Shown: piece after piece, positions 1-52,182 of the stretch
Numbering within the stretch: the first letter of the stretch is position 1
How the letters are laid out: the number at the start of each line of letters is the position of its first letter
DNA from: Clostridia bacterium
Lineage (GTDB): Bacteria; Bacillota; Clostridia; Oscillospirales; SIG627
DNA length: 58,456 bases
Assembly: GCA_017414535.1 (NCBI GenBank)
Contig: JAFQMA010000015.1
Span: forward strand, 1 to 58,456
Direction of reading: 5' to 3'
Position numbers and translations under genes: made by a program
Notes under the pieces: generated by a model
Seen by the model: only the letters and a program-made list of their open reading frames with translations
The model's database searches: none
Told to the model about the DNA's origin: nothing

Positions 1-155
1 CCGAGAATGATATTCTTTGTTTTCGGCGAGTATTTACCTTTCTCAAAGTATGTAACCCACTATGACACTTTCACTAACTGAAAGTGTCATTTTTTCTTTA
101 TATAGAAAACGGAGACTACTTCTTTACGAAGTGTCTCCGTTCGTCGGCTCTTTTC
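1..155 (-). repeat. Hairpin-rich intergenic element, copy 1 (cut by window edge); inverted copy of 19779-19935
   Basis: The reverse complement of 1-155 aligns with 19779-19935, with about 14 mismatch/indel positions in ~146 nt by manual alignment. Both copies start right after a stop codon with a GGAGAC...GTCTCC terminator hairpin. An 11-bp-stem hairpin TGACACTTTCA/TGAAAGTGTCA follows. Differences fall mostly in hairpin loops. Confidence 0.85.
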
Positions 156-165
156 TTCTCTGTTG

Positions 166-2337
166 TTAAAGGGTGCTTTCCATACGGCGGATGTATTCCT
201 CCTGACCGCCGCGGGAGACGTCCACAAAAACGGCGCTGTAGCCCGTAATGCGCACCAAAAGATCGCGGTAGGCTTCAGGGTCGCACTGTGCTTTCCGCAG
301 CTCCTCCGTAGAGGTGATGCCGAACTGCAGATTCATACCGCCGTCGGCAAAATACCCGTCCATCAGCGCCAAGAGAGCGGCACTGTCGCGAGGGGTACGG
401 AGCATACTGCGGTCAAGACGCACGTTCAAAACGCCGCAGTTGATCCTGTTCCAGGGAAGGCTCGTCACGGAATGAAGCAGGGGCATCAAGCCCTTTCCGA
501 AGCCCACGGTGGGATTCAGATCCGCGCTGAAATTGGTGTAGGCAAGGCGACCGTCCACCGTAGCAGGCGTTTTGCGACCGTACAGGATATGTCCCTGATC
601 GTAGATATTGGCAACAAGGGTGATGACCTCCCTTTTTCCGTCCTTGCCCACGGCGCGGCGATCCACCGCATCCAGCAGGCGGGTCAAAAGGCGCTTGGCG
701 TGACCGTCGGCAATGGCGTTCTCCGTGCCGTATTTGGGCGCGGCAAGGCAGGCTCTGCGAAGCTCGTCATATCCTTCGAAATTGGCCGCCGTCGCCGCCA
801 AAAGCTCCTCCGGCGTGCAAAGCTTTTTGCGAAACACCACGTCCTCCACGGCACAGATCATATCCGTGGCGGTGCCGAGAATGGTCATATACACGTACAC
901 CGCAGGGTATTTCACACCGCCGAAATGCAGACTTCTTCCCTTCTCCAGACAGCCCCGCAAAAAGCAATCGTCCGCACTTAAAATGCTACCGCAGGGAGGA
1001 AGAGTGCCCGTGCAGAACTTTTCCCTGTAGGGAATAAAGCACTCATCGATATATTCCGTATAAACGGCCTCGATCTTGTCGTAAAGCTCGTCGATGCTTT
1101 CGGGCAGAGCCCCCTCGCTCAAAGCACGGTTCACCACCAGAGGCAGGGGCTTTTTTTCCGCCACTCTTCCCACGATGGCACCGCCGTGGATATCCGCCCA
1201 GTTGCAGGGATGCACGGTATATTCCACCGCATCCTCGGGGCTGACGCCCCCCGCGATCTGCGCGGGGATCATGGTCTCGTCGTTATAGACGATGACGGAG
1301 GCGTTTTGGCGGATCTTTTCTGCCAGGATCTCCCACAGCGCCTGCGGACGGTCCTTGGTGTGACGGCAGATGAAAACGGGATTTTTCAGCTCGGGATGAA
1401 TATGCTTGGCCCAAAGCACGGAAAGCTCGTTTTCCCGATGGTCAAGGGCATTCGAATAGCCGCCCAGCACCACGTAGCCGGGAGAATCGTAAAGATGGTT
1501 GCGGTAAAAGCTTGTATGTTCGTAATTTTCATCAAGAAAATCCAGCTGATGCTCCCCGCGACCCAAATGCAGATTGGTCTTGGCACAGAAATCGTCGATA
1601 AAAGCACCCGCCTCTTCTTCGGTCAGCGTACCGGCGGCGATCTCCTTGCGATAAAAGGGCAAAAGAAGGCTGTCCACACGTCCCATGGTAATACAGCTGA
1701 CAAAGCGACCCGCATAGACCAGATGAAAGGTGTAAACGAACAGGATCAGCTGCAAGGCCTGACGGAAGGTCTGCGGAGCACCCTTACAGAGCACGCGGCA
1801 CACCTCGGCCATGTCCTCCTCCCCCGCCTGCGCGGCAGCCTCACCGTAGCGCTCCGCAAAACGCAGGTAGGCGCGATAGGTCCAAAGCATGCCCTCCAGA
1901 AGGTTGCGCGTTCTTTGATCCTCGCCCTCCGACACCGCACGGGCAAGGCGCGCCTCGGCCAAAGCCACGTAGCCGGGCAGACCGATCTCCAGAATGCGCT
2001 CCCAATCCAGCGTGATATGGCTGGCGGTGCGGTTCGTTACGGGATTTTTCGTCAGACTCTCCGCGCTCTCGGCGACCGCTTTTTCCTCCTCGGGCGTGGG
2101 CACGTGATCGTCAAAACGAGCCAAAAACAGATCGTACGGCTCAATGGGAAGGCAGGCCCTTTCGGCCATATAATAAAGCCCTTTTCCGAGAATAAGGGGC
2201 TGAGGCAGCGCGGCATAGGTCTCCCACGCCTCCTTCACCAAAAGAAAGCGCTGCACCAGCGTGCTTCTTTTATCCTTTTCCCGCAGAAGACGGGCGGCCT
2301 CGCTGACGCTGTGGGCCGCTTTTTCCAAAAGTGTCAT
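166..2337 (-). CDS. Glycyl radical enzyme (PFL-like fold), uncharacterised clade, 723 aa
   Basis: ATG at 2337 follows an AGGGAGGAAA RBS; the 803-aa track ORF runs on into the promoter. C-terminal glycyl-radical fingerprint RITGYSAVF. TPATVDGR loop. Mid-protein Cys loop SPEDAVEYTVHPCNW aligns with the EDARDY..GC.E region of GREs. Confidence 0.85.
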   Translation of the reverse strand: MTLLEKAAHSVSEAARLLREKDKRSTLVQRFLLVKEAWETYAALPQPLILGKGLYYMAERACLPIEPYDLFLARFDDHVPTPEEEKAVAESAESLTKNPVTNRTASHITLDWERILEIGLPGYVALAEARLARAVSEGEDQRTRNLLEGMLWTYRAYLRFAERYGEAAAQAGEEDMAEVCRVLCKGAPQTFRQALQLILFVYTFHLVYAGRFVSCITMGRVDSLLLPFYRKEIAAGTLTEEEAGAFIDDFCAKTNLHLGRGEHQLDFLDENYEHTSFYRNHLYDSPGYVVLGGYSNALDHRENELSVLWAKHIHPELKNPVFICRHTKDRPQALWEILAEKIRQNASVIVYNDETMIPAQIAGGVSPEDAVEYTVHPCNWADIHGGAIVGRVAEKKPLPLVVNRALSEGALPESIDELYDKIEAVYTEYIDECFIPYREKFCTGTLPPCGSILSADDCFLRGCLEKGRSLHFGGVKYPAVYVYMTILGTATDMICAVEDVVFRKKLCTPEELLAATAANFEGYDELRRACLAAPKYGTENAIADGHAKRLLTRLLDAVDRRAVGKDGKREVITLVANIYDQGHILYGRKTPATVDGRLAYTNFSADLNPTVGFGKGLMPLLHSVTSLPWNRINCGVLNVRLDRSMLRTPRDSAALLALMDGYFADGGMNLQFGITSTEELRKAQCDPEAYRDLLVRITGYSAVFVDVSRGGQEEYIRRMESTL

Positions 2338-7221: not shown

Positions 7222-10200
7222 ATGAAACACACCCTCACTCATCGTCTGCTCTCCCTGCTGCTTTGCGCTACCCTGCTTCTGGGACTGGTCCCCACAGCGA
7301 TCGTCAGTGCGGCCGCAGGAGACACAGGCCTTGTTTCCACCGTGCAGGGAACCAAGGTGGCAGACCCTCATAACATTCACGGCTGGACCCATCATTTCGG
7401 CTCCACCGTGCTGAATACGGAAAATGCAGGCAAGGTATGGGCAGATAAATCCGTCTTTACCGACGTTGCCTCCTTTAAGGCCGCCATGCTGCAGGGCGAG
7501 AGCATCAATCCCAACGCCGCCTATAACAGCATGGCCATTGACGACGACAATTTCCTGGTGGCTCTGTCCGGTATTGCCGCCACCAAAGAGGTCGTGGGCT
7601 ATTCCGCCGTGCCTACGGATACGGTCTTTGTTCTGGACGTGTCCGAATCCATGGACCAAAGCGGCTACGTGCCCTCCATGGTCACCGCCGCCAACAACGC
7701 CATCAAGACTCTTTTGGAGCTGAACCGCCACAACCGTGTCAGCGTGGTTCTCTATTCCGGTAACACCAGGGAGGGCAGCTCCAACCTGAGCCACGCCACC
7801 GTACTGCTCCCCTTGGATCGCTACGAGGCAGGCAACAGCGGTGATTACGTTACCTACACCGGCTACACCACCAGCACCACCGTTGCCGTGGCACGCGATC
7901 TGAAAAACGGCGAGGGTGAAGAGGTTGATCGCACAAGCAAGACCACCCAGGGCGGCACCTATATTCAAAGCGGTCTGTATCTGGCCTCCACCCAGTTTAA
8001 GAAGGCCTACGACGACGGCACCACCGTCATTGACAGCGACCTGATCCAGGGCGGCACCAAGCGCATCCCCGTCGTCGCTCTCATGAGTGACGGTCTACCC
8101 ACCGCCGCCTCCACCAATTACGCTACCCTCGGAACGAATGGCACCTCCAATCAGGGCGACGGCACCGAAAACACCAATGCCATTACCTTCTTGACCCAGC
8201 TCACCGCCAAGTGGCTGAAGGAAAGCGCCTCCAAATATTACGGTAACGAGGCCCTGTTCTATTCCCTCTGGCTGAAGAGCGCAAACGATAATTCCAACAA
8301 CCCCACCATCGCTCCCTCCACCTCCGGCGTCACGCTGGACGGCTGGTGGAAATCCTATCTGAATGCCACCGCAGGCAGCCAGGTCTCCTTCCGCGTAAGT
8401 CAGAGCAGAACCTTCTCCATCACCCGCGATGACGTGGTGGAGCGTGTTCCCGCCGTGGATCCCGCCACAGACGAATACACCAAGGACTGGACCGAGGCAC
8501 AGAACTACGTAGACGAGTACTTCACCGCTACCAACGCCGGAGATTTTGAAAACGCCTTCAAAAGGATCGTTGATACCATTATCGCACAGTCTCGCTATTA
8601 TCCCACCATGGTCTCCGGTCAGAATCATTCCAACAGCGGCTACATCGCCATTGAGGACCCCATCGGCGTCTTCATGGAGGTGAAGGAGCTGGAGGGCATC
8701 GACATCGGCGGACACCTGTTTACGGGCGAGGCCCTCATCAAGATGATGATGAACAACGACTTCGGTAACCGCGATACCTATACCGAAAACGGCTGGAAGC
8801 TCATCGAAGCCATCGAAAACCGTCTGGGCGTGGGCGAGGACGTGGCCATCGCCATTGCCTCCGAGGCCTGGAATTACGGCCAGTTGGGCTACGACAGCAC
8901 CACCGGAAAATACAGCAACTACATCGGCTGGTACGCCGACGAAAACGGTGTCTATAAGGGTTTCTGGCACGACGGTCACACCGTTGCCGACGTCCCCGCA
9001 GGCGCCACCCAGCGCATCAAGAGCTACGGCTTCTACGGTGTTATTGACGATGCCATTTCCGATTCCAATATCGCAGGCACCGACATGATGCATATAGCCG
9101 TGCGCGTAGCAACCAAGCTCACCACCGGCGAGCAGACCGTCTCCTTCGGCATTCCCGCCGCTCTCATTCCTCTGGTGGTCTACGAGGTAGAGGTCAATGC
9201 CTCCAGCATTGCCGCCGCCACGGAGGCAAAGCTGAACGTGACCGGCGCCACCCATCCCCTCCGCCTGCTCATGGAGGTAGGCCTGAGAGAGGACATCAAC
9301 GAGCTGACCGTCAAGAGCATCGTGGAAAAGAGCGACCACTACCACAAGGATGCCGACGGCAACTATGTATTCTACACCAACCGCTGGGGTGACGTACACG
9401 TGGATACGGGCATGATGGATAAGCCCGAATACATGAACCATACCGCTACCGTGTCTCACTTCAATCCTTCCGTCATGAACGAGAAGTATTACTTCTTCCA
9501 GGACACCGCCATCTACACCGATGAGAGAGGCACCCGCTACGTGGGTAGCTCCGCCCCCGCAAACGCCACCTTCTACGAGCTGGTCTACGTCTTTGAGGCT
9601 ACGGGCAACGGTGACGAGGCTCGCATCTTAAAGAAATACCGCCCCATTTCCGACAAGGCCATCATTCATGCGGAAAAGGATGAGGATTCCAACGCATGGC
9701 ACATTCCCGGCAACGTCGCACACTACAACGTGACCGATTACAAGGTACAAAAGCCCGACAATGCAACGGACACCCTGGAATACCTTGTCAGCATCGAGAT
9801 CCCCGAGTATACACAGGGTCGCTATGAGGTCTACAGCATGCACGGCAACAACGGCCGCATCACCATGTCGCAGACCACCGGCATGAAGCTGACCAAGGAG
9901 ATCCCCGTGGTCATTCCCGGCACCTCCACCAAGAACTTCGTTCTGAACGTAGCCTTTGCCGCACCCGCAGGCACCACCCTTCCCGCCACCGTGAAGGTCT
10001 CCTACGATCAGAAGACCTACGTCGAGGTAGCCACAAATAACGTTTCCGTCACGCTGGATGCCAACGAGTCCGTATGGATCTACGGCCTGCCCGCAGGCAC
10101 CGCCTACACCGTGACCGAGGAGGATCACCTCGATTATCAGCCTCAGATCAGCTCGGTCAGCGGCACGCTGACCGGCGGTGAGATCACCCCCGTCACCTTC

Positions 10201-13200
10201 ACCAACCGCGCCAAGGACGCAGGCCGCGTGGTGATCACCAAAAAGGTGGCCCATCCCTTCGGGGAGGGAACCGTCGTTCCCACCAATCTGAAGTTCGCCT
10301 TTATCGCTGCCATCTTTGTAAACGGCACGGCCTACGCCAACCAGCCCGTAGAAACCAGCCACGGCAGCTTCACCACCGACTATCTCGGCCAGATCATCTT
10401 TGCGCTGGGCGCAGACGATTCCATCTCTATCAACGGCCTGCCCAACGGCGCAGAGGTACAGGTATTTGAGGTCGATATGCCTCAGGGCTTCCGTGCCGAC
10501 AAGGACTCCGACTCCGCCATCACCACCTACGGTGAGGTGGAGGAGCTGGTATTCACCAATACCTACGAGCCCCGCAGCATCAACGGCTCTCAGGTCAAGA
10601 TCCACGGCACCAAGTATCTGGACGGCCGTCTCTGGCAGGATTTCGACGCTTACACCTTCCGTCTCCAGTATTGGAACGGCATCAGCTGGCAGGTGCTGGC
10701 AGGCGGCAGTGAAAACGTCGCTACCAAGGCCGATCCCACCTTCAACCTCTCCGACGTATTCGCAAGCTTCAACTTCGATCACGAGGGAAGCTACCGCTTC
10801 TGGATCGTAGAGGAGGAGGGCGAGCTGGGCGGCATCACCTACGATAAGTCCGTACGAGAATTTATCGTTACCGTGGAGGACAACTGGAAGGGCGTCTACG
10901 AGATCGCAGACGTTTCCTCCGCCTCCGCTCAGGTCACCGTGACCGAGACTCCCGCGGCAAGCGGCACCGAATACACCGTCAACACCGGCTTTACCAACCG
11001 CTACTCCACCGGCACCACCTTCGTGGATCTGAGCGGTGAAAAGACCCTCGTAGGCGACGATCTGGCGGGCTACGTAGGCGAAAACGGCTTCGGCTTCGAG
11101 CTTCATACCGCCGTAATGACCTCGGGCGGACTGCAGCAGGATCAGCTGATCTACACCGCACATCTGAACGATGAGGGCAAATTCACCTTCGATCACAACT
11201 ACGTCGGTCATCTGGTCTTCGATCAGCCCGGCACCTACTACTTTATCGTGCGCGAGGCTGTCATCGGAAGCGATCCCCTGATGAAATTCGATCCCGCCCT
11301 TTACGAGATCACCGTTGTCGTTACCGACAATCTGGTGGGCGGTCTGGAAAACACCGTAGCCGTGACCCGCGTTACGGCCGGCGGCAGCACCACCGCTGAC
11401 AAAGCAAGCCTCAACTTCACCAACGAGCGCCTGCCCAAGGCCGTGCAGATCCGACTGCTCGGTCATAAGAATTACAACTTGACCCTCCCTGCCGATAAAT
11501 TCACCTTTGATCTGTACAAGGCGACCCTCTCCGGCTCCACCTATACCGCCGAGGGTAACGCTCTTCTCTCTGCCACCAACCGGGCAGACGGTGCCTTCCT
11601 GCTGGAGGACGGCGCAAGCTCCTCTCATCTGGTCTTCACCAAGGCCGGTGATTATCACTTCATCGTGAAGGAGCGTCTCCCTGCGGGAGTCAGTGCACAG
11701 GATCCCACCCTGAACGGCATCACCTACGATACCCGTGAGTACGGTCTCACCGTGCGCGTCACCGACGGCATCAGCCCCACGGGCAGAGCCATCCTCATCT
11801 ATGAGCTTTTGGTGAACGGTGTTCCGGGCGGCTCCATCACCTTTGATAACCGCTACGGCGCATCAGGCGAGATCACTCTCTCCGGCGAAAAAACGCTGGA
11901 CGGCAAGACCCAGGGCACCGAGGCCTTTACCTTCGAGCTGTATAACGCAAGCGTTTCCGGCTCTACCGTGACTCTCGGCTCTCTGATCGACTCCAAGTCT
12001 CCCGTGGGAGGCACCTTCACCTTCAAGGCTCTGCACTTCGCCTCTCTTGCCGACGTGGGCGAGCACTACTTTGTGATCCGTGAGAGGATCCCCGCAGGTG
12101 CCAATGCCGCCCATACCTACAAGGGCGTCACCTACGATGCAAGAGAGTATCTGGTGAAGATCACCGTCACCGATAACGGCGACGGCACCCTGAAGACTGA
12201 AAAGACCGTAACTCTGAACGGCGCTCCCGCCGAGGTCCGTTTTGAGAACACCTACGCCATCACTGCCGAGACCCGCGTTCCCGTCAGCGGCGAAAAGGGC
12301 GCCGAGGACTTCACGCTGAAGGACGGCGATTTCTCCTTTGCCATCTATAACGGCAATGTAGACGGTCAAGGCAAGGTCACGGCCGACGGCACCCCCATTG
12401 AGACCGTCAAGAACGTAGGCTCCGCCTTCTCCTTCACCGATCTGAAGTTCGATTCCCTCACCGACGTGGGTGACCATTACTTCGTGATATGCGAGGTAGT
12501 TCCCGACGAGGCCGATGCCAACGGCATTTACAAGGGCATCCTCTATGACAAGAGCGAATTTGTTCTGAAGGTCACCGTGACCGACAACGGCGACGGCACC
12601 CTGAAGGCTGTGCCCACGCTCACCAAAAACGGCACCGCCGCCTCCCTCCGCTTTGAAAACGCTTACCGCATCACCACCGCAGGTGCCATCACCGTCGGCG
12701 GCGAAAAGAAGCTGGAGGACAAGACCCTTGCCGACGGCGTTTATACCTTCGAGCTCTACAAGGCACAGAAGGACGGTCAGGGCAAGCTTGCCATTGTAGG
12801 CTCCGCCATCGATACCGACATCAACAAGGACGGTAAATTCACCTTCGATACCGTCACCTTCACCTCTCTGGAGGACGTGGGTATTCACTATTTCGCCGTG
12901 AAGGAGCGCATCCCCGCCGCCGCACAGGACAATGCCCATCTGGGCGTTCTGTACGATGCCAGAACCTACTTTATCACCGTGACCGTCACCGATAACGGCG
13001 ACGGCACCCTGGCCGTTACCTCCGCCACCTCCGTGGAGGGCGAAAGCGCCGCCAAGATCGAATTTGTCAACAAGTACGGCGTCATGACCCCTGTGGAGAT
13101 CACCCTGGAGGGTGAGAAGACCCTGGACGGCGCGGCCGCTCCCGACGGTAAGTTTACCTTCGGTCTGTACAAGGTAAGCGTCACCGCTGCAGGCGATCCT

Positions 13201-13620
13201 GTGATCGATCCCAACGCGCTGCAGACCGTTTCCACCAAGGACGGTAAATTCAGCTTTACCGCCATGAAGGCTGAGAAGCTTTCCGATGAGGGCAATTACT
13301 TCTTCGCCATCCGCGAGATCATCCCCGACGGTGCGGATGAAAACGGCGTAAAGGACGGCATCAAGTACGATCCCACCCTGTACTACGCTCGCGTAGAGGT
13401 TTCCGACAACGGCGACGGCACCTTCAAGACGCAGGTCTACTACGGTGACGCCGAGGGCAAGATCATTGATCACGCGCCCACCTTCGCCAACACCACCGTG
13501 GAGAAGCCCCCCGTTCCCACGGGCGACAGAGCTAACCTTGCTCTGTGGCTGGCGCTCCTCTTCGTTTCCGGCACCTCTCTGTTCGTTGTTCCCCTCATTG
13601 CCAAGAAAAGAAGAGCGTGA
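7222..13620 (+). CDS. Giant cell-wall-anchored adhesin: signal peptide, vWA domain, about 7 pilin-isopeptide (Spy0128/FctA-like) modules, LPXTG-like sorting signal
   Basis: AAAGGAG RBS. N-terminal signal peptide. MIDAS motif DVSES. Repeated modules of the form FTF(E/D)LY..DGKFTF..HYFV(I/V)(R/K)E..GVTYD..VTVTDNGDGTL. C-terminus is PVPTGD, then a hydrophobic helix, then KKRRA. Confidence 0.85.
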   Translation: MKHTLTHRLLSLLLCATLLLGLVPTAIVSAAAGDTGLVSTVQGTKVADPHNIHGWTHHFGSTVLNTENAGKVWADKSVFTDVASFKAAMLQGESINPNAAYNSMAIDDDNFLVALSGIAATKEVVGYSAVPTDTVFVLDVSESMDQSGYVPSMVTAANNAIKTLLELNRHNRVSVVLYSGNTREGSSNLSHATVLLPLDRYEAGNSGDYVTYTGYTTSTTVAVARDLKNGEGEEVDRTSKTTQGGTYIQSGLYLASTQFKKAYDDGTTVIDSDLIQGGTKRIPVVALMSDGLPTAASTNYATLGTNGTSNQGDGTENTNAITFLTQLTAKWLKESASKYYGNEALFYSLWLKSANDNSNNPTIAPSTSGVTLDGWWKSYLNATAGSQVSFRVSQSRTFSITRDDVVERVPAVDPATDEYTKDWTEAQNYVDEYFTATNAGDFENAFKRIVDTIIAQSRYYPTMVSGQNHSNSGYIAIEDPIGVFMEVKELEGIDIGGHLFTGEALIKMMMNNDFGNRDTYTENGWKLIEAIENRLGVGEDVAIAIASEAWNYGQLGYDSTTGKYSNYIGWYADENGVYKGFWHDGHTVADVPAGATQRIKSYGFYGVIDDAISDSNIAGTDMMHIAVRVATKLTTGEQTVSFGIPAALIPLVVYEVEVNASSIAAATEAKLNVTGATHPLRLLMEVGLREDINELTVKSIVEKSDHYHKDADGNYVFYTNRWGDVHVDTGMMDKPEYMNHTATVSHFNPSVMNEKYYFFQDTAIYTDERGTRYVGSSAPANATFYELVYVFEATGNGDEARILKKYRPISDKAIIHAEKDEDSNAWHIPGNVAHYNVTDYKVQKPDNATDTLEYLVSIEIPEYTQGRYEVYSMHGNNGRITMSQTTGMKLTKEIPVVIPGTSTKNFVLNVAFAAPAGTTLPATVKVSYDQKTYVEVATNNVSVTLDANESVWIYGLPAGTAYTVTEEDHLDYQPQISSVSGTLTGGEITPVTFTNRAKDAGRVVITKKVAHPFGEGTVVPTNLKFAFIAAIFVNGTAYANQPVETSHGSFTTDYLGQIIFALGADDSISINGLPNGAEVQVFEVDMPQGFRADKDSDSAITTYGEVEELVFTNTYEPRSINGSQVKIHGTKYLDGRLWQDFDAYTFRLQYWNGISWQVLAGGSENVATKADPTFNLSDVFASFNFDHEGSYRFWIVEEEGELGGITYDKSVREFIVTVEDNWKGVYEIADVSSASAQVTVTETPAASGTEYTVNTGFTNRYSTGTTFVDLSGEKTLVGDDLAGYVGENGFGFELHTAVMTSGGLQQDQLIYTAHLNDEGKFTFDHNYVGHLVFDQPGTYYFIVREAVIGSDPLMKFDPALYEITVVVTDNLVGGLENTVAVTRVTAGGSTTADKASLNFTNERLPKAVQIRLLGHKNYNLTLPADKFTFDLYKATLSGSTYTAEGNALLSATNRADGAFLLEDGASSSHLVFTKAGDYHFIVKERLPAGVSAQDPTLNGITYDTREYGLTVRVTDGISPTGRAILIYELLVNGVPGGSITFDNRYGASGEITLSGEKTLDGKTQGTEAFTFELYNASVSGSTVTLGSLIDSKSPVGGTFTFKALHFASLADVGEHYFVIRERIPAGANAAHTYKGVTYDAREYLVKITVTDNGDGTLKTEKTVTLNGAPAEVRFENTYAITAETRVPVSGEKGAEDFTLKDGDFSFAIYNGNVDGQGKVTADGTPIETVKNVGSAFSFTDLKFDSLTDVGDHYFVICEVVPDEADANGIYKGILYDKSEFVLKVTVTDNGDGTLKAVPTLTKNGTAASLRFENAYRITTAGAITVGGEKKLEDKTLADGVYTFELYKAQKDGQGKLAIVGSAIDTDINKDGKFTFDTVTFTSLEDVGIHYFAVKERIPAAAQDNAHLGVLYDARTYFITVTVTDNGDGTLAVTSATSVEGESAAKIEFVNKYGVMTPVEITLEGEKTLDGAAAPDGKFTFGLYKVSVTAAGDPVIDPNALQTVSTKDGKFSFTAMKAEKLSDEGNYFFAIREIIPDGADENGVKDGIKYDPTLYYARVEVSDNGDGTFKTQVYYGDAEGKIIDHAPTFANTTVEKPPVPTGDRANLALWLALLFVSGTSLFVVPLIAKKRRA

Positions 13621-18459: not shown

Positions 18460-19776
18460 ATGAAAATCACCTTCATCGGTGCGGGAAGCACCGTTTTTGC
18501 CAGAAACGTCATCGGTGACTGCTTTCTGACCGACTGTCTGAAAAACGCCACCTTCGCCCTGTACGATATCGACCCCAAGCGTCTGGAGGAAAGCCGCGTG
18601 ATCCTCACCGCCATGGCAAAAAGCATCGGTCTTCAGGCCGATCTGCAATGCTACGTGGGAGTAGAACGCCGTCGGGAGGCCCTGCGCGGGGCGGACTTTG
18701 TCATCAATGCCATTCAGGTGGGCGGCTACGAGCCCTCCACCGTTATCGATTTTGAGATCCCCAAGAAATACGGTCTGAGACAGACCATCGGCGATACGCT
18801 GGGCATCGGCGGCATCATGCGCGCCCTGAGGACCATCCCCGTCATGGAGGATTTTGCCCACGAAATGGAGGAGGTCTGCCCCAAGGCGCTCCTTCTCAAT
18901 TACACCAACCCCATGGCCATGCTTTGCGGCTATCTCCAGCGCTACACCGCCGTCAATACCGTAGGTCTCTGCCACAGCGTACAGGGCTGCTCCCGCGGGG
19001 TGCTTCGCTCCGTTGGTATGGAGGATAGGATCGAGGGTCGACGCGATCTTATCGCCGGCATCAACCACATGGCGTGGCTCCTGGAGATCCGCGATAAGGA
19101 CGGACGCGACCTCTACCCCGAGATCAAACAAAGAGTGGAGGAAAAGCTGCGCGATCCCGATTTTAACAATAAGGTAAGGCTGGAATACATCAAATATTTC
19201 GGCTATTACTGCACCGAATCCTCCGAGCACAACGCGGAATACAACCCCTTCTATATCAAATCCGCCTATCCCGATCTCATCGCGCGCTACAATATTCCCT
19301 TGGATGAATATCCCCGCCGCTGTATCGCTCAGCAGGAGCAGTGGAAAAAGGAATACGGGGAGCTACTGGAGGGTGCCGAAAAGACCTTCTCCCGCACAGA
19401 GGAATACGCCTCCCATATCATGGAGGCCGTAGTGACGGACCGTCCCATGCGCATCGGCGGCAACGTCTTGAACCAAGGCCTGATCACCAACCTTCCCGCC
19501 ACCGCCTGCGTAGAGGTACCCTGCCTGGTGGACGGCAGCGGCGTTCGCGGCTGCTTCGTGGGCGATCTGCCCGAGATCTGCGCCGCCATGAATCGCACCA
19601 ATATCAACGTGCAACTGCTCACCGTGGAAGCGGCCAGAACGAAAAAGAAGGAGCACGTCTATCAAGCGGCCATGCTGGATCCCCACACCGCCGCAGAGCT
19701 TCCTCCCCATAAGATCTGCGCCATGGTGGATGAGCTCATGGAGGCCCACGCTCCCTTCCTTCCCCAATATCACTAA
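18460..19776 (+). CDS. melA: GH4 alpha-galactosidase
   Basis: N-terminal NAD-binding KITFIGAGSTVFARNVIGD as in MelA. CHSVQG block. 438 aa. Confidence 0.85.
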   Translation: MKITFIGAGSTVFARNVIGDCFLTDCLKNATFALYDIDPKRLEESRVILTAMAKSIGLQADLQCYVGVERRREALRGADFVINAIQVGGYEPSTVIDFEIPKKYGLRQTIGDTLGIGGIMRALRTIPVMEDFAHEMEEVCPKALLLNYTNPMAMLCGYLQRYTAVNTVGLCHSVQGCSRGVLRSVGMEDRIEGRRDLIAGINHMAWLLEIRDKDGRDLYPEIKQRVEEKLRDPDFNNKVRLEYIKYFGYYCTESSEHNAEYNPFYIKSAYPDLIARYNIPLDEYPRRCIAQQEQWKKEYGELLEGAEKTFSRTEEYASHIMEAVVTDRPMRIGGNVLNQGLITNLPATACVEVPCLVDGSGVRGCFVGDLPEICAAMNRTNINVQLLTVEAARTKKKEHVYQAAMLDPHTAAELPPHKICAMVDELMEAHAPFLPQYH

Positions 19777-19941
19777 AGAAAAAAGAGACCGAACACGGAG
19801 ACACTTCGAAAAGAAGTAGTCTCCGATTTTCTATATAAAGCAAATGACACTTTCAGTTTTTGAAAGTGTCATAGTGGGTTACATACTTTGAGAATGGTAA
19901 ATACTTGCCGAAAATAAAGAATCTCTTTCTCGGCAGGTAAA

Positions 19942-20118
19942 GTGATATTGCAAACGATCGTTTGCAGTGATATTTTTGCCTTGCAGCAAAAGTGGTATCG
20001 AAACCTAACGGTTTCAGTGATATTATATTCGCCCATTTAACTGTCCGAAGGACAATATCACTATGCGTAGCATAATATAACTGCGCAGCAATATCACTCG
20101 CCGCAAGGCGAATATAAC
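19942..20118. repeat. Phased 7-mer / mini-hairpin array (GTGATAT x4, then ATAT(C/A)AC x4)
   Basis: GTGATAT at 19942, 19967 and 20017, and GTGGTAT at 19992, give an exact 25-nt period with 18-nt palindromic spacers. ATATCAC at 20055 and 20091. ATATAAC at 20075 and 20112. These right-hand boxes are separated by 9-14-nt hairpins. Confidence 0.8.
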
Positions 20119-20148
20119 TGAGGCACCTTCCTTATGGAGGGTGCCTCA
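20119..20148. terminator. Strong 13-bp-stem hairpin adjacent to the right terminal repeat
   Basis: TGAGGCACCTTCC-TTAT-GGAGGGTGCCTCA, followed by TTCGGTCTCTTTTTTT. Lies downstream of the fur-family gene on the minus strand. Confidence 0.55.
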
Positions 20149-20170
20149 ATTCGGTCTCTTTTTTTGCGTT

Positions 20171-20551
20171 TTATTCCGCTGCCTTTTGGCAAGCGGGGCA
20201 AACGCCGTACAGCTCCACGTGGCGGGAGGAAATGGCGTAGCCGTAATTCTTCTCAAGCTTCTCCAGCCCCATAGGGGGCAGGGCCTCGTCGTGCACGTCG
20301 CCGCACCGGGTGCAGATCACGTGGAGGTGATCCTTGGCATCGCCGTCAAAGCGATCCTCCGGTCCCACGTGCAGGCGTAGGATCTCACCCTCGTCGGCGG
20401 CATTTTTCAAAACACGGTACACCGTAGCCTTGCTCAGGTTCGGATATCGCTCCTTCAGGTCCTCGTACAAACGGGTGGCGGAGGGATGATCCCGACGAGC
20501 GCGGAGCTCTTCAAAAATGGCTTTTTTCTGAGCCGTGTTGCGTTTTTGCAT
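20171..20551 (-). CDS. Fur-family metalloregulator (Fur/Zur/PerR type not resolved)
   Basis: Winged-helix N-terminus (TAQKKAIFEEL...SKATVYRVLK). HLHVICTRCG and CPAC zinc-site CxxC pairs. 126 aa. Confidence 0.85.
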   Translation of the reverse strand: MQKRNTAQKKAIFEELRARRDHPSATRLYEDLKERYPNLSKATVYRVLKNAADEGEILRLHVGPEDRFDGDAKDHLHVICTRCGDVHDEALPPMGLEKLEKNYGYAISSRHVELYGVCPACQKAAE

Positions 20552-31392: not shown

Positions 31393-32081
31393 TCTCTTAC
31401 GTTATTTTTGATCTGGACGGCACGCTGGCCAAGATCGGCGCCCCCGTTCTGCAGGAGGATCTGGCCCTGATCCACGACATTGAAAAAAAGGGCGTCGGCA
31501 TTGCCATTTCCTCGGGCAAGCCCACCTACTACACCTGCGGCTTCGCCCGTCAGATGGGCCTTTCGGACCCTTACCTCATCGGTGAAAACGGTGCCGTTCT
31601 GCAAAAGGGCATCGAGCTGCCGCCCCCCCTTACCCGCAAGAGCCCCATTCCCGAAAAAACGAGACGCGCCCTCAAGGAGCTGCGCGCCCTTTTGGAGGAA
31701 AAGTTTCCCGACCGTCTGTGGTTTCAGCCCAATGAGACGGCGCTGACCCCCTTCCTTGCCCAGGTGGAGGATTTTCCCGCTCTGCGGGCGCTGTTTGCCT
31801 CCTTCGTCAAGCCCGACATGGAGCTGACGGTATACGAGCATTGCGATTGCTTCGACATCGCCTGGTCTCCCCTTGATAAGGGCGAGGGCATCCGCCTCCT
31901 TTCCGAGGTCACGGGAGCCGATCCTGAAACCATGATCGCCGTGGGCGACTGGACCAACGACTATTCCATGTTTGCCGAGGCGGGCTTCTCCATCGGTATC
32001 AATCTCCCCGATCCCGAAAAGGCCACCGTGAACGTGACCTGCCTCCGCGACGCCTTAAAGCTGATTTTGGAAAAAATTTAA
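31389..32081 (+). CDS. HAD-IIB (Cof-type) phosphatase
   Basis: Motif I FDLDGTL and motif IV GDWTNDYSMF. ATGA overlap with the upstream gene. Confidence 0.8.
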   Translation: MISYVIFDLDGTLAKIGAPVLQEDLALIHDIEKKGVGIAISSGKPTYYTCGFARQMGLSDPYLIGENGAVLQKGIELPPPLTRKSPIPEKTRRALKELRALLEEKFPDRLWFQPNETALTPFLAQVEDFPALRALFASFVKPDMELTVYEHCDCFDIAWSPLDKGEGIRLLSEVTGADPETMIAVGDWTNDYSMFAEAGFSIGINLPDPEKATVNVTCLRDALKLILEKI

Positions 32082-32099
32082 ACCGACGTAAAACCCTTT

Positions 32100-32212
32100 T
32101 TCTTGGAACACCTTTTTTTCGAAAAAGCTTATCCCCGCCCTCTTCCCAAAAGCTTTTCATTTTAATATGATAAAAAAAGAGGCCTTTCCGAATTTCGGAA
32201 AGGCTTCCTTAT
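32100..32212 (+). repeat. Composite terminator repeat, copy B
   Basis: CTTTTTTTCGAAAAAG core, CCCTCTTCCCAAAAGCTTTT box, TTTTAATATGATAAAAAAAGAGGCCTTTCCG-AATT-TCGGAAAGGCTTCC hairpin. About 50 nt are near-identical to 46752-46805. Confidence 0.7.
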
Positions 32213-32254
32213 CGTTAATATTCTCACTCCTCCTATTTCATGCTTTGTTTATCT

Positions 32255-33259
32255 TTAGTTCTCAAGGAATTCGGTCAAAAGGGGATATTCTTTTCCGACC
32301 TCGTGCCCGTCTAAAAAGAAGGCAACGTCCTCGGCGCTTTCAACCGTGATTTTCTCTTCGGGCTCGATAAAAAGGAACCATCGACCAATGTCAGAGGTTG
32401 CACCGAGTCTTGTGGTTTCAACACTCAGAGAAAGTTTCCCTTCTGCCTTGCGCTTCAAAGCCTCCACCTCGTGCGTGTACCCGCCGCTTTCTCTGATGAT
32501 CTGAGCCAAAATAAGGATGCGATCATTAAAATAGTCCTCATTATAACGGGAAGTCGCTTCCAAAAAATCGGTATATTCGAGGCTTTGACATTCTTCGCCG
32601 TAGGCCTTGCAGAAATTATTCCATTCTTCTGCGGAACGGAATACCTGCAGGGGCTCACCGTAAAGGTCAAGCACGCGAAGGGTCTGCTGAGAAAAGACAA
32701 CGTCCGTGAAATTCGTTGGCGTCATTCCTGTTATATTGAAATTAGCCCATGCTTCAACGGTAGAGGAGGCAGAAGCTTCCTCCTCCGGTCGAATTGTGAT
32801 GAAGAGGCGGTAATCACCGTTATCAAGGTAGCCGAACAAGTGATTCAGCCCCAAAAGAGAAAGCGGATTTTCCTGCAATTTTAAATTTTTCCTAAACACA
32901 TCCGAAGAAAGATAACCGATGCGGTCCAACTGTTCCCCTTTGTATTCGGCAATGGTCTCCCAATGATCGCCAACCTTGCATTGCATGAAAAGATCCCAGT
33001 TTTGATAACTTCTTCCGCAGGCCGGTGTGTATTTGATAACAAGCCACGCTTCCTCCTTTGACCACGCGTGCTCGACGATCTCAATTCCGTATTCTTCATG
33101 GGTCGAGCCGCTCTCCCCGATCTCAATGGCGGGGACTTCTGGCTCGGCGGGGGTGGTTACGGGAGAGGTAGCGGTGGCCTGCGGGGCTTCCGCGCCGCAG
33201 GCAAAAAGGGAGGGCAGCAGTAAAATCCCCACTAAGAATATGGTCAAAATTCGTTTCAT
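32255..33259 (-). CDS. Lipoprotein, unknown function (paralog I)
   Basis: AAAGGAGGA RBS before MKRILTIF. Lipobox LFAC. The N-terminal ~52 aa are nearly identical to 47375..48355; the rest is diverged. Confidence 0.75.
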   Translation of the reverse strand: MKRILTIFLVGILLLPSLFACGAEAPQATATSPVTTPAEPEVPAIEIGESGSTHEEYGIEIVEHAWSKEEAWLVIKYTPACGRSYQNWDLFMQCKVGDHWETIAEYKGEQLDRIGYLSSDVFRKNLKLQENPLSLLGLNHLFGYLDNGDYRLFITIRPEEEASASSTVEAWANFNITGMTPTNFTDVVFSQQTLRVLDLYGEPLQVFRSAEEWNNFCKAYGEECQSLEYTDFLEATSRYNEDYFNDRILILAQIIRESGGYTHEVEALKRKAEGKLSLSVETTRLGATSDIGRWFLFIEPEEKITVESAEDVAFFLDGHEVGKEYPLLTEFLEN

Positions 33260-51927: not shown

Positions 51928-51944
51928 AGATCATCTTTTTTTAA

Positions 51945-52182
51945 AAGCCGTGATGAGACCAAGTACCCGTTGGTTCCTCCTTTCAGAGAGCTGTCGGCCG
52001 CTGCGAGACAGCAAGGAGCCCCGTGGGGAATACAGCTCGGAGCTGCCCCGAGGAAATGCGGGGTCGGGATCGCCCGTTACAGCGCAGGGATTTTTCCCGC
52101 TGAGGCGGCCGCAGGGCCGTAAATCAGAGGTGGTACCACGAGATCATCGTCCTCTGCCGTAAGGCAGGGGACTTTTCTTTTT
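51945..52182 (+). promoter_or_regulatory. T-box riboswitch, tyrosine (UAC) specifier
   Basis: GUGAUGAG K-turn (51950-57). AGUA (51962-65). AGAGAG bulge (51985-90). Specifier loop GAA-UAC-A (52028-34). F-box CCGUUA (52074-79). T-box AAAUCAGAGGUGGUACCACGAG (52121-42). Terminator 52151-82. Confidence 0.85.

What the first reader, a model, noticed from the sequence alone, without database searches (positions are those of the whole stretch)
19942..20118. Phased GTGATAT / ATATCAC boxes separated by unrelated mini-hairpins: a foldable stack of four-way junctions
Seen:
- Four left boxes are GTGATAT (19942, 19967, 20017) and GTGGTAT (19992). They sit at an exact 25-nt period.
- Each pair of left boxes is separated by an 18-nt spacer that is itself a hairpin: TGCAAAC-GATC-GTTTGCA, TTTTGC-CTTGCA-GCAAAA and CGAAACC-TAAC-GGTTTCA.
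- An 18-nt non-palindromic centre (TATATTCGCCCATTTAAC) follows.
- Four complementary boxes come next: ATATCAC (20055, 20091) and ATATAAC (20075, 20112).
- They are interleaved with hairpins TGTCC-GAA-GGACA, TATGC-GTA-GCATA, TGC-GCA-GCA and TCGCC-GCAA-GGCGA.
- Only the boxes are conserved; the hairpin stems share no sequence.
- In nested pairing, L4:R1 and L2:R3 are perfect 7-bp helices. L3:R2 and L1:R4 each have one G-A mismatch.
- A hairpin protrudes from each strand between successive helices, which gives three consecutive four-way junctions capped by a 31-nt apical region.

Inference:
- I do not recognise this architecture as a known riboswitch, CRISPR repeat, attC site, REP/BIME or retron msr/msd.
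- Alternatives are arrays of protein-binding sites (direct on one arm, inverted on the other, as at transposon ends or iteron origins), or an ssDNA/RNA scaffold.
Basis: seen in the sequence. Interest (0 to 1): 0.75.

Follow-up and report, generated by a model that had tools for sequence, protein, structure and literature searches.

The report
Gut-1 hairpin arrays inside mobile element
The phased boxes and mini-hairpins are real, but they are a copy of the already catalogued 'Gut-1' RNA motif plus its mirror image, and together they form the core of a small repeated insertion element lodged inside a transcription-terminator hairpin; what the arrays do is still unknown.

Summary
The architecture is catalogued. 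The right arm, read on the minus strand, is an Rfam Gut-1 RNA (RF01706, 58.9 bits against a cut-off of 50). The left arm is a second, inverted Gut-1-like array (29 bits).

About 60 homologous loci in gut and rumen Clostridia share one composite: strong hairpin, short array, centre, long array.
- Hairpin stems covary heavily.
- The box-box helices of the proposed four-way-junction stack show no compensatory change (87.9% paired against 87.6% in shuffles).
- The outermost box and half of the first hairpin pair with the 'non-palindromic centre'. This helix covaries perfectly (AU/UA/CG in 40 of 40 sequences) and is wholly re-coded in a variant family.

The 177 nt are the core of a ~356-nt repeat (19794-20149) with hairpin-like terminal inverted repeats. 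It sits in the loop of the terminator between the convergent GH4 and fur genes.
- A second copy starts at window position 1.
- Longer relatives carry a PF05635 (Avd-like) gene.
- For one relative I found the empty site, an intact terminator, in strains of the same species.
- The window subfamily also carries a MOBV-type oriT-like site.

Function is unresolved: probably a cis-acting structured module of a terminator-homing element.

The parts
19779..19793 (.). Outer half-stem AAAAAAGAGACCGAA, just after the GH4 stop codon (19774-19776). It is the partner of 20150-20164. Read as one half of the host's bidirectional intrinsic terminator, split by the insertion.
   Evidence: Sequence. The MFE of both strands closes the whole element with this stem. 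Analogous site-specific A-run/stem...stem/T-run pairs occur in about 19 loci. An intact counterpart is seen at the empty site of a relative.
19794..20149 (-). The inserted repeat element, copy 1, about 356 nt and non-coding. The Gut-1 orientation is the minus strand.
   Evidence: The boundary on the GH4 side is set by comparison with copy 2, where similarity stops right after GTGTCTCCGT. The boundary on the fur side is set by comparison of copy 1 with the complete copy 2.
19797..19824 (-). Right-end hairpin GGAGAC..GTCTCC, an imperfect inverted copy of P0 (the terminal inverted repeat, right).
   Evidence: The inverted alignment scores above the direct one in 14 of 19 loci. In the window the scores are 18 against 14. 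The match is clearer in L089, L374, L023 and L053.
19844..19893 (+). oriT-like cargo: inverted repeat ATGACACTTTCA-5-TGAAAGTGTCAT followed by AGTGGG/TTACATACTTT. By analogy the nick would fall between G19878 and T19879 on the + strand.
   Evidence: 32-33 nt are 97-100% identical to the site 67 nt upstream of a Mob/Pre gene in a Klebsiella IncHI2 plasmid (L129). The same stretch matches four other enterobacterial plasmids and two Kurthia plasmids, whose gene context was not tied to a Mob gene. Aligned with the pMV158 oriT from PMC5863519. Present at the same place in L015, L053, L102, L107 and L111.
19904..19937 (-). Hairpin CTTGCCGA..TCGGCAGG of the 3' domain.
   Evidence: Conserved in copy 2.
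19942..20023 (-). Long array. On the minus strand: ATATCAC(R1) P5 ATACCAC(R2) P6 ATATCAC(R3) P7 ATATCAC(R4).
   Evidence: Scores 29.1 bits as Gut-1 on the + strand. The R boxes are nearly invariant in 44 elements.
20024..20033 (-). Centre C (minus strand GGCGAATATA): the 3' strand of the covarying long-range helix.
   Evidence: (I10). Re-coded to GGAACGGATAT in the variant L252/L253.
20042..20118 (-). Short array, the Gut-1 motif proper. On the minus strand: GTTATAT(B0) P1 GTGATAT(B1) P2 GTTATAT(B2) P3 GTGATAT(B3) P4.
   Evidence: Rfam RF01706, 58.9 bits against a cut-off of 50, for 20030-20120 on the minus strand.
20107..20118 (-). 5' strand of the long-range helix: box B0 plus the 5' half of P1 (minus strand GTTATATTCGCC). 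It can pair either with the P1 3' half (20098-20102) or with centre C.
   Evidence: 95.8% of cells paired. Pair 6/108 is AU in 19, UA in 11 and CG in 10 sequences, with none unpaired. The covariation score is 0.162 against 0.072 in shuffles (0 of 500 reach it).
20120..20147 (-). P0, the strong hairpin GAGGCACC..GGTGCCTC with the semi-conserved apex CTCCATAAGGAAG. It is the left terminal inverted repeat and abuts B0 with a 1-nt gap.
20150..20164 (.). Outer half-stem TTCGGTCTCTTTTTT, 6 nt from the fur stop codon. It is the partner of 19779-19793.
1..140 (+). Copy 2 of the element, cut by the window edge. It holds the 3' domain with the oriT-like site and the right-end hairpin, followed by its own half-stem GTCGGCTCTTTT (143-154) and the stop of a PFL-like gene (166).
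   Evidence: The full copy was recovered in L512/L513.

Best explanation
The feature is the hairpin-array core of a small, non-coding, repeated insertion element.

Identity (shown):
- On the minus strand, 20042-20118 is a Gut-1 RNA motif: four short stem-loops separated by GUKAUAU linkers.
- 19942-20023 is a second array of three longer stem-loops separated by AUAUCAC linkers. It is the mirror image of the first.
- Each spacer folds on its own.
- The short array is closed by a long-range helix between its first box plus half of hairpin P1 (20107-20118) and the 'centre' (20024-20033). This helix competes with hairpin P1.
- The boxes are conserved single-stranded linkers, not helices of a junction stack.

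Setting (shown for relatives, inferred for this copy):
- The arrays sit behind a strong terminal hairpin (P0) in a ~356-nt element with hairpin-like terminal inverted repeats.
- The element has been inserted at the apex of the intrinsic-terminator hairpin shared by the convergent GH4 and fur genes.
- The family is dispersed in Oscillospirales and related Clostridia.
- It lies almost always directly behind a co-directional gene or tRNA.
- It carries variable cargo: nothing, a PF05635/Avd-like four-helix-bundle gene, or, as here, a MOBV-type oriT-like site.

How it works (inferred):
- Because it sits in a terminator loop, the element is transcribed by read-through from the upstream gene.
- Its many local hairpins and end-to-end pairing bring the two terminator halves back together, so the host loses little.
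- The arrays are a cis-acting structured module of that transcript.
- Their displayed 7-nt linkers are recognition sites for a multimeric partner. The element-encoded four-helix-bundle protein is only a candidate.

My rough confidences: Gut-1 identity 0.95; part of a mobile element in a terminator loop 0.8; acts as RNA on the minus strand 0.5; bound by the four-helix-bundle protein 0.15.
For: Gut-1 identity:
- Rfam hits.
- The original Gut-1 alignment flanks already show the same composite.

Composite conserved:
- 61 clusters have GTGATAT arrays followed by ATATCAC arrays and none has the reverse order.
- 64 anchored elements lie in 61 of 120 genome loci.

Local hairpins:
- 1571 Watson-Crick, 23 G-U and 36 non-pairs, with 13-39 distinct sequences per hairpin.
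- 26 of 41 RNAalifold pairs are compensatory.

Long-range helix:
-.
- Wholesale re-coding in L252/L253.

Mobile element:
- Site-specific outer inverted repeats of terminator form occur in about 19 loci.
- Ends are imperfect inverted repeats.
- Two copies lie in this genome, about 93% identical in the 3' domain, each inside a different A-run/stem...stem/T-run.
- An empty site (AAAAAAAGAGCATACGG-GTTA-CCGTATGCTCTTTTCTTT) and a filled site (a ~1.15-kb element with the arrays and the four-helix-bundle gene) occur in strains with 99% identical GH31.
- Neighbouring genes are unrelated between loci.

Orientation:
- The upstream gene or tRNA is co-directional in 49 of 53 loci.
- The two window copies are in opposite orientation while GC skew keeps one sign.

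Folded strand:
- G-U against A-C is 23:7 on the Gut-1 strand, p = 0.005.

Cargo:
- PF05635.
- oriT-like site.
Against: - No empty site was found for the window's own copies. All same-species contigs carry copy 1.
- About 30% of copies follow an intact tRNA terminator instead of sitting in a split one, and they lack the conserved P0. The array module therefore also exists outside the inverted-repeat-bounded element.
- No transposase, recombinase or reverse transcriptase was seen near any copy. No clear target duplication was seen either, at most TT.
- RNA versus single-stranded DNA is not settled. Loop types are mirror images between the arms: UNC/UNNC in the short arm and GNA/GNNA in the long arm. 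Each arm therefore looks 'the same' on its own strand. GNA triloops closed by C-G are classic stable DNA mini-hairpins (my own knowledge).
- The G-U excess could come from a strand-specific mutation bias.
- The variant family changes both box types in concert (ATGATAT / ATATCAT). That fits box-box pairing or a double-stranded-DNA binder better than independent RNA linkers.
- No expression data were available.
Confidence: 0.6

Rival explanations
1. The arrays work at the DNA level. The boxes are binding sites for a transposase, recombinase or replication protein, direct within an arm and inverted between arms. The palindromic spacers extrude as DNA hairpins on single-stranded or supercoiled DNA during transposition or replication of the element.
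For: - The module lies inside a mobile element next to its left terminal repeat.
- The arms are mirror images, including loop types. On the strand that reads ATATCAC, loops are GNA/GNNA in both arms.
- Both box types change in concert in the variant family, ATGATAT and ATATCAT.
- Both strands fold equally well, z = -14.6.
- The window subfamily carries a relaxase-type nick-site look-alike.
Against: - Box spacing is not phased. Long-arm periods run from 20 to 27 nt, which is hard to reconcile with a helical-face array on duplex DNA.
- Conservation is asymmetric: R boxes are invariant while B boxes are degenerate. That is unexpected for one protein reading both arms.
- G-U outnumbers A-C on the same strand in both arms, 5:1 and 18:6.
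- Both arms lie at one end of the longer elements, not one at each end.
- Strong co-orientation with the upstream gene.
Confidence: 0.25
2. It is a free-standing small RNA gene, as Rfam labels Gut-1, with a trans-acting role such as a protein sponge. The repeats around it are incidental.
For: - Rfam type 'Gene; sRNA', and Weinberg 2010 rated it a likely non-coding RNA.
- Heavy covariation.
- Many copies end with a terminator.
Against: - There is no room for a promoter. The element starts 0-60 nt after a stop codon or tRNA, and P0 abuts B0.
- It is multi-copy, with unrelated neighbours and variable cargo.
- Presence/absence polymorphism occurs at a terminator loop.
Confidence: 0.15
3. One reading: nested box-box helices with a hairpin protruding from each strand, giving three stacked four-way junctions.
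For: - In the window two of the four box pairs are perfect 7-bp complements.
- Single-sequence MFE folds use some inter-arm pairing.
- The inner pairs B3:R1 and B2:R2 are complementary in 95-96% of cells.
- Both box types changed together in the variant family.
Against: - No compensatory change within the family. Paired cells are 87.9% against 87.6% in shuffles. B1:R3 is broken at its third base pair in 22 of 40 sequences, and B0:R4 is paired in only 72% of cells.
- L015 and L111 have GTTATAT in all short-arm boxes against ATATCAC in all long-arm boxes.
- B0 is taken by the covarying long-range helix.
- RNAalifold does not predict any box-box helix.
Confidence: 0.05
4. Selfish DNA without a cis function for the arrays. 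The hairpins stay perfect through template-switch 'quasipalindrome correction', and the boxes are merely the unit borders of a tandemly and invertedly duplicated module.
For: - Copy 1 and copy 2 share a 93% identical 3' domain, yet P3, P5 and P6 are unrelated perfect hairpins. This is a mosaic rather than gradual change.
- The arms look like inverted duplicates.
Against: - The number, order and length classes of the hairpins, the box sequence and the long-range helix are kept across families of Clostridia and in a variant with re-coded sequence. That requires purifying selection on the architecture.
Confidence: 0.1

Closest known systems
Gut-1 RNA motif (Rfam RF01706; Weinberg et al. 2010, PMC2864571)
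   Same: The minus strand 20030-20120 scores 58.9 bits against a cut-off of 50. It shows short hairpins separated by GUGAAAU-like linkers and a gut Clostridia habitat. The flanks of the original seed alignment show the same extended composite.
   Different: - The Rfam model covers only three hairpins of the short arm.
- The inverted second array, the covarying long-range helix, the P0 hairpin, the outer split terminator, the cargo and the mobility are not part of the published description, which says only that the motif is found in human gut metagenomes.
- The family is also found in named MAGs from rumen and other animal guts.
MITEs and modular repeats of bacteria (Correia/NEMIS, RUP, pneumococcal BOX)
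   Same: - Short, non-coding and multi-copy.
- Imperfect terminal inverted repeats.
- The transcript folds into a long structured hairpin.
- Modular internal units.
- Longer relatives carry genes.
   Different: - No clear target-site duplication.
- The target is the apex of an intrinsic-terminator hairpin.
- Strong co-orientation with the upstream gene.
- The longer relatives encode no recognisable transposase, only a PF05635 protein and an orphan ORF.
REP/BIME/REPIN elements
   Same: Extragenic hairpins in inverted pairs, placed behind genes near terminators and repeated around the genome.
   Different: - In REP the stem sequence is conserved and preceded by GTAG (my own knowledge). Here the stems are free and the linkers are conserved.
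- No RAYT gene was seen.
- The element is bounded by inverted repeats and inserted in a terminator loop.
23S rRNA intervening sequences that carry a PF05635 ORF; DGR accessory protein Avd
   Same: - Relatives of this element carry a PF05635 gene.
- Like an IVS, the element sits at the apex of a hairpin of a transcribed structure and its ends pair (my own knowledge of IVS).
- PF05635 resembles Avd (PMC10053308).
   Different: - The host site is a terminator, not rRNA.
- The window copy has no ORF.
- No reverse transcriptase lies nearby.
MOBV-type origin of transfer (pMV158 oriT; the site upstream of the Mob/Pre gene in a Tn4451-like unit)
   Same: 19844-19893 has the inverted repeat followed by ATAGTGGG/TTACATACTTT. 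32 nt are identical to the site upstream of a Mob/Pre gene in a Klebsiella IncHI2 plasmid (L129), and the same stretch matches four other enterobacterial plasmids.
   Different: - No relaxase gene in the window or in the related loci.
- The second inverted repeat is degenerate in the window copies.
- It concerns the cargo, not the arrays of the finding.
Bacterial class C group II introns
   Same: They home to intrinsic terminators in the direction of transcription (my own knowledge).
   Different: No ribozyme or reverse transcriptase. Rfam finds no intron domains. The insertion is inside the loop, not after the stem.

Membership tests
Gut-1 RNA (RF01706) | Covariance-model score at or above the Rfam gathering score | tested here: met
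   58.9 bits against 50 for 20030-20120 on the minus strand. The inverted arm scores 29.1 bits, below the cut-off. In L014 both arms pass.
Gut-1 RNA (RF01706) | Consecutive short hairpins with covarying stems separated by conserved GUGAWAU linkers | tested here: met
Gut-1 RNA (RF01706) | Expressed as a non-coding RNA | not testable with these tools
   No transcriptome data. Only indirect evidence: G-U against A-C at 23:7, and co-orientation in 49 of 53 loci.
MITE-like non-autonomous transposable element | Terminal inverted repeats | tested here: inconclusive
   For the window copy, P0 against the right-end hairpin is only about 70% alike (inverted score 18 against direct 14). The match is clear in relatives L089, L374, L023 and L053. 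Inverted beats direct in 14 of 19 loci.
MITE-like non-autonomous transposable element | Several copies per genome with sharp boundaries and different flanks | tested here: met
   Copy 1 (19794-20149) and copy 2 (window 1-140, complete in L512). Similarity ends at the right-end hairpin and the flanks differ.
MITE-like non-autonomous transposable element | Empty and filled sites in related genomes | tested here: met
   Met for a relative: L374-L383 are filled and L384-L392 are empty, an intact terminator with the loop GTTA. Not obtained for the window's own sites.
MITE-like non-autonomous transposable element | Target-site duplication | tested here: inconclusive
   At the L374 site at most TT could be duplicated (GTT|...TTTT|A). 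No repeat is evident at the window junctions.
MITE-like non-autonomous transposable element | A cognate autonomous element that encodes a transposase | tested here: not met
   The longer relatives encode only PF05635 and an orphan 103-aa ORF. No shared neighbouring gene.
REP/BIME | Conserved palindrome sequence with a 5' GTAG, and a RAYT partner | tested here: not met
   The stems are the variable part, with 13-39 distinct sequences per position. RAYT presence was not tested.
MOBV oriT (concerns 19844-19893 only) | Inverted repeat followed by the conserved nick region GTGNG/TT | tested here: met
   Alignment with the pMV158 oriT and with the site upstream of a Mob/Pre gene.
MOBV oriT (concerns 19844-19893 only) | A cognate relaxase gene next to it, and nicking activity | tested here: not met
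   No Mob homologue in the window or the loci by tblastn. Nicking is not testable here.
23S rRNA intervening sequence | Insertion in a 23S rRNA helix | tested here: not met
   The host site lies between protein-coding genes. No rRNA in the window.
   no excess over shuffles. B0 pairs elsewhere.

The most novel reading that the evidence does not exclude
Gut-1 arrays may mark an undescribed class of mobile elements that home to the apex of intrinsic-terminator hairpins. This would parallel PF05635-bearing intervening sequences at the apex of rRNA hairpins.
- The elements would depend on read-through transcription.
- They would move through, or with the help of, their folded transcript and an Avd-like four-helix-bundle protein.
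- The hairpin arrays would be the recognition scaffold.
- Some lineages have in addition picked up a relaxase nick site. That would let a chromosomal terminator act as an origin of transfer.
Probability: 0.25. Interest if true: 0.8.

Novelty: new member of a known kind. Interest (0 to 1): 0.5.

Why it matters
- Gut-1 has been an orphan motif since 2010, known only as three hairpins from gut metagenomes.
- Placing it inside a larger element gives concrete handles for finding its function. That element has a mirror array and a covarying closing helix. It also has hairpin ends, variable cargo, and a demonstrated empty and filled terminator site.
- It offers an example of a repeat family that uses terminator loops as safe landing sites.
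- It links the poorly understood PF05635 (IVS/Avd-like) proteins to a second kind of hairpin-apex insertion.
- For genome annotation it explains long, highly structured spacers behind genes and tRNAs in Oscillospirales.
- It also flags oriT-like sequences on chromosomes.

Tried and rejected
- **Empty site of the window copy.**
  - Same-species contigs all carry it.
  - The nearest GH4 homologues are only 73-74% identical and not syntenic.
  - The single metagenome scan, for AAGAGACCGAA-N0-30-TTCGGTCTCTT, returned more than 120 unrelated generic terminator hairpins and none with the window flanks. It was a poor choice of pattern, though it shows that such stems are common terminators.
- **Literature.** No paper mentions 'Gut-1 RNA' beyond Weinberg 2010. 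Searches on the box sequences, PF05635 and terminator-inserting MITEs gave nothing specific.
- **3' domain of the L018 subfamily against plasmids.** No match.
- **Viral contigs.**
  - Box-pattern scans were mostly unrelated AT-rich tandem repeats.
  - They yielded only one standard composite (L265).
  - The ATGATAT/ATATCAT variant family (L252/L253) came from the 4HB protein search of viral contigs, not from the box-pattern scans.
- **ORF2 of the long element.** No Pfam or PADLOC match.
- **First look-up of the PFL-like gene.** It failed because of a wrong start codon and succeeded with the ATG at 2337.
- **Kinds considered and rejected:**
  - CRISPR: only a 14-bit chance hit.
  - attC: the boxes do not fit GTTRRRY.
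  - Iterons or phased duplex sites: the spacing is not conserved.
  - DnaA or Fur boxes: no fit.
  - Type III antitoxin repeats: the units are not identical.
  - ROOL, GOLLD or group II introns: no Rfam hits.
- **Covariance model.** I did not build one of my own. Box-anchored parsing plus MAFFT and RNAalifold sufficed.
Full report
**1. Observation**

- GTGATAT sits at 19942, 19967 and 20017, and GTGGTAT at 19992, with an exact 25-nt period.
- The three 18-nt spacers are palindromic.
- The 18-nt centre is 20024-20041.
- ATATCAC sits at 20055 and 20091, and ATATAAC at 20075 and 20112, with four short hairpins between them.
- The heptamer is over-represented: 13 against 2.7 expected, and no shuffle of 100 reaches 13.
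- The region folds far better than shuffles on both strands, z = -8.7 and -7.9.

One correction: L3:R2 also contains a G-T wobble.

The feature lies in the 394-nt spacer between two convergent genes. One is a family-4 glycoside hydrolase that ends at 19776. The other is a Fur-family regulator on the minus strand that ends at 20171.

**2. It is a catalogued motif**

Rfam gives Gut-1 (RF01706) for 20030-20120 on the minus strand at 58.9 bits, against a gathering score of 50. It gives a sub-threshold Gut-1 match of 29.1 bits for 19940-20028 on the plus strand. The two arms are therefore two Gut-1-like arrays that converge on the centre.

Gut-1 was described by Weinberg et al. 2010 (PMC2864571) only as a likely non-coding RNA seen in human gut metagenomes. 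The flanks printed in the authors' own Stockholm file already show the second, inverted array and a preceding strong hairpin. These parts are neither in the model nor in the text.

**3. Homologues and canonical anatomy**

Most come from Oscillospiraceae, Acutalibacteraceae, Christensenellaceae and unclassified Clostridia MAGs from human, ruminant and other guts. Among them, 61 clusters have GTGATAT boxes followed by ATATCAC boxes and none has the opposite order.

Parsing 46 elements gives one architecture in the Gut-1 orientation, which is the window's minus strand:
- strong hairpin P0
- (C)A
- box B0, GTT[A/T/C]TAT
- P1, TCGCC-loop-GGCGA
- B1
- P2, TGC-nnn-GCA
- B2
- P3
- B3
- P4
- GTTnnnn
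- centre C, GGCGAATA[T/A/G]A
- R1, ATATCAC
- P5
- R2
- P6
- R3
- P7
- R4

The arms differ in a conserved way.
- The short arm has periods of 20-21, 16, 20-21 and 18-20 nt, and its boxes are degenerate at positions 3-4.
- The long arm has periods of 20-27 nt and almost invariant ATATCAC boxes.
- Only 2 of 41 elements have three equal long-arm periods. The exact 25-nt phasing of the window is therefore incidental.

**4. Which pairings are supported**

The hairpins are real.
- Pairing from the spacer ends inwards gives 1571 Watson-Crick, 23 G-U and 36 non-pairs. Shuffled spacers give 28% Watson-Crick. Each position has 13-39 distinct sequences.
- RNAalifold finds compensatory changes in 26 of 41 consensus pairs.

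- On a 40-sequence alignment (A1) they are 87.9% paired, against 87.6% in column shuffles, with no compensatory change.
- The third base pair of B1:R3 is broken in 22 of 40 sequences.
- B0:R4 is paired in only 72% of cells.
- Some elements have GTTATAT in all short-arm boxes opposite ATATCAC throughout the long arm (L015 and L111).

- 95.8% of cells are paired.
- One position switches between AU (19), UA (11) and CG (10) with no exception.
- The covariation score is 0.162 against 0.072 in shuffles, and none of 500 shuffles reaches it.
- In a divergent family on two viral contigs the boxes are ATGATAT and ATATCAT, P1 is CCGTTCC-TTGC-GGAACGG and the centre is GGAACGGATAT. The helix is kept with an entirely different sequence.
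- Because the P1 3' half and the centre carry the same pentamer, the P1 hairpin and the long-range helix are alternatives. Both are kept in both families, which suggests a conformational switch. This last point is inference.

In the window the helix joins 20107-20118 with 20024-20033 (pair I10).

**5. Context**

Neighbouring genes are unrelated from locus to locus, but the position is stereotyped.
- The feature immediately upstream is co-directional with the Gut-1 strand in 49 of 53 cases: 33 ORFs and 16 tRNA genes. Its end lies 0-60 nt from the element.
- Downstream genes are co-directional in 31 cases and convergent in 22.

There are two classes.
- Behind tRNA genes, P0 is an ordinary terminator with an A-run, a stem and a T-run.
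- Behind ORFs, P0 has a semi-conserved apex (..CTCCnTAAGGAAG..). In about 19 loci the whole element is then enclosed by a site-specific inverted repeat that looks like a split intrinsic terminator, an A-run plus GC-rich half-stem ... complementary half-stem plus T-run. The window shows this with AAAAAAGAGACCGAA (19779-19793) and TTCGGTCTCTTTTTT (20150-20164).

Both strands of 19772-20172 fold with this outer stem closed, z = -14.6.

**6. It is an insertion element**

(a) The sequence just inside the right boundary is an imperfect inverted copy of P0 in most such loci. The inverted alignment scores above the direct one in 14 of 19. An example is GGCGTGATACTCTTAACGGAG against the reverse complement GCGTGTTGTTCTTATCGGAG in L374.

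(b) The window holds a second copy.
- Positions 1-140 on the plus strand are about 93% identical to the 3' domain of copy 1.
- The similarity stops right after the right-end hairpin.
- It is followed by a different half-stem and T-run, and then by the stop of a PFL-like gene.
- The complete copy 2, recovered from same-species contigs, sits in AAAAAGAGCCGAC ... GTCGGCTCTTTT between a kinase gene and the PFL-like gene.
- Copy 1 and copy 2 share P0, P1, P2, P4, the centre, the P7 stem and the 3' domain. P3, P5 and P6 are unrelated perfect hairpins, which makes the copies mosaics.

(c) There is a direct empty and filled pair.
- In Ruminococcus-like MAGs a GH31 gene is followed by AAAAAAAAGAGCATACGG-gtt.
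- Next comes P0, the arrays, a promoter, a four-helix-bundle gene and a 103-aa ORF.
- Then comes the right end, -A-CCGTATGCTCTTTTCTTT.
- Contigs whose GH31 is 99% identical have, at the same place, only AAAAAAAGAGCATACGG-GTTA-CCGTATGCTCTTTTCTTT, followed by the same right flank.
- About 1.15 kb is therefore inserted at the apex of a 4-nt terminator loop. At most TT is duplicated.

By analogy the window's 19794-20149 is a cargo-poor member lodged in the bidirectional terminator of GH4 and fur. I could not obtain an empty site for the window itself.

**7. Cargo**

- A gene for a PF05635 protein ('23S rRNA intervening sequence protein', E = 1.8e-28) follows R4 directly, behind a consensus promoter, in at least eight loci.
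- Its family is very abundant and very uniform. There are 7990 hits, many 91-97% identical.
- Its closest solved relative is 2RLD (five chains in the entry).
- PF05635 resembles the DGR accessory protein Avd (PMC10053308).

The window subfamily (window copies 1 and 2, L015, L053, L102, L107, L111) instead carries an oriT-like site at 19844-19893.
- It has an inverted repeat followed by ATAGTGGG/TTACATACTTT.
- 32-33 nt are 97-100% identical to the site 67 nt upstream of a Mob/Pre gene, beside TnpW and a serine recombinase, in a Klebsiella IncHI2 plasmid (L129). The same stretch matches four other enterobacterial plasmids. It also matches two Kurthia plasmids, where no Mob gene is annotated beside it.
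- It aligns with the pMV158 oriT, GCACACACTTTATGAATATAAAGTATAGTGTG/TTATACTTTAC, from PMC5863519.
- No relaxase gene is present in the window or in these loci.

**8. RNA or DNA, and which strand**

For RNA on the minus strand:
- G-U pairs outnumber A-C mispairs 23:7 (p = 0.005). The ratios are 5:1 in the short arm and 18:6 in the long arm.
- The long-range helix has further G-U pairs on this strand.
- The elements follow the direction of the upstream gene.
- The two window copies are in opposite orientation while GC skew keeps one sign across the window. Orientation therefore tracks transcription rather than replication. This rests on two copies only.

Against, or for a DNA reading:
- Loop types are mirror images. 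They are UUC/UAC/UNNC in the short arm and GAA/GCA/AAA/GNNA in the long arm. Each arm thus looks the same on its own strand.
- C-GNA-G loops are the classic very stable DNA mini-hairpins (my own knowledge).
- Both box types changed in concert in the variant family.
- The G-U excess could be a mutational bias.

I therefore hold the RNA reading at about 0.5 and the DNA-level reading at about 0.25.

**9. Most likely mechanism**

- Shown: the feature is a Gut-1 family member. It has local hairpins and a long-range closing helix. There is no comparative support for the junction stack. It is a repeat-family member with sharp ends, and a relative is demonstrably inserted in a terminator loop.
- Inferred: insertion at a terminator apex guarantees read-through transcription from the host gene. 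The densely folded insert and its pairing ends re-unite the terminator halves, so termination and 3'-end protection survive. The arrays are a cis-acting module that displays several copies of a 7-nt linker between hairpins to a multimeric partner.
- Speculative: the partner is the element's own four-helix-bundle protein, and movement depends on the transcript.

**10. Novelty and score**

The arrays themselves are a known, function-less Rfam family, so the locus is a new member of a known kind. As far as my searches show, the following are new:
- the composite anatomy
- the covarying closing helix
- the refutation of box-box pairing
- the terminator-loop insertion with an empty site
- the PF05635 and oriT-like cargos

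Interest is 0.5. The finding is ordinary as a 'new structure', but it is a useful lead into an orphan motif and a possibly new kind of mobile element.

Noticed in passing
window 1-140 (+), flank to 168: A second copy of the element, truncated by the window edge and about 93% identical to copy 1's 3' domain. It sits in its own terminator-like stem (GTCGGCTCTTTT) next to the stop of a PFL-like glycyl-radical enzyme gene (166-2337, minus strand).
   Followed up: yes
window 19844-19893 (+) and 40-105 (-): MOBV-type oriT-like site: an inverted repeat followed by ATAGTGGG/TTACATACTTT. 32 nt are identical to the site upstream of a Mob/Pre gene in a Klebsiella IncHI2 plasmid (L129), and the stretch also matches four other enterobacterial and two Kurthia plasmids. 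No relaxase gene in the window.
   Followed up: partly
window 19794-19855: Against two same-species contigs (L121, L122), all 5 differences in 550 nt fall in loops or linkers of the element's 3' domain (19855, 19841, 19826, 19809, 19794). None falls in the flanking coding sequence or in any stem.
   Followed up: no
L512:5150-5600 compared with window 19760-20185: Copy 1 and copy 2 of one genome share most modules, but hairpins P3, P5 and P6 are replaced by unrelated perfect hairpins. This suggests module shuffling or copy-choice at the boxes rather than stepwise compensatory change.
   Followed up: partly
L014:1720-1770; also L069, L084, L058, L020: In tRNA-linked copies, a T-arm-like sequence (GGNGTTCRAAC) lies 10-20 nt after the last box. 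In L014 it is an 18-nt inverted copy (17 of 18) of the upstream tRNA-Tyr T-arm. Unexplained.
   Followed up: no
L019, L044, L066 (after R4): The 8-nt AACTCTTG just after the last box repeats the 5' half of the preceding tRNA terminator stem. It also overlaps the -35 of the downstream gene. It may be a target duplication or coincidence.
   Followed up: no
L374:1986-2297: A 103-aa ORF sits inside the long element downstream of the four-helix-bundle gene. It has no Pfam or PADLOC match.
   Followed up: partly
L252/L253 (IMG/VR contigs), 1270-1500: A variant family with boxes ATGATAT/ATATCAT and a re-coded P1 and centre. It sits behind a tRNA and in front of a 50%-identical four-helix-bundle gene, on contigs classed as viral. 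L131 (MT835815, labelled 'Bacteriophage sp.') has the standard composite plus the four-helix-bundle gene.
   Followed up: partly
window 51941-52157 (+): A T-box leader (RF00230, 108 bits).
   Followed up: no
window 32001-33000: A local dip in G+C to 0.454, against 0.55-0.63 elsewhere.
   Followed up: no
window 7222-13620 (+): A very long ORF of 2132 aa. Not examined.
   Followed up: no
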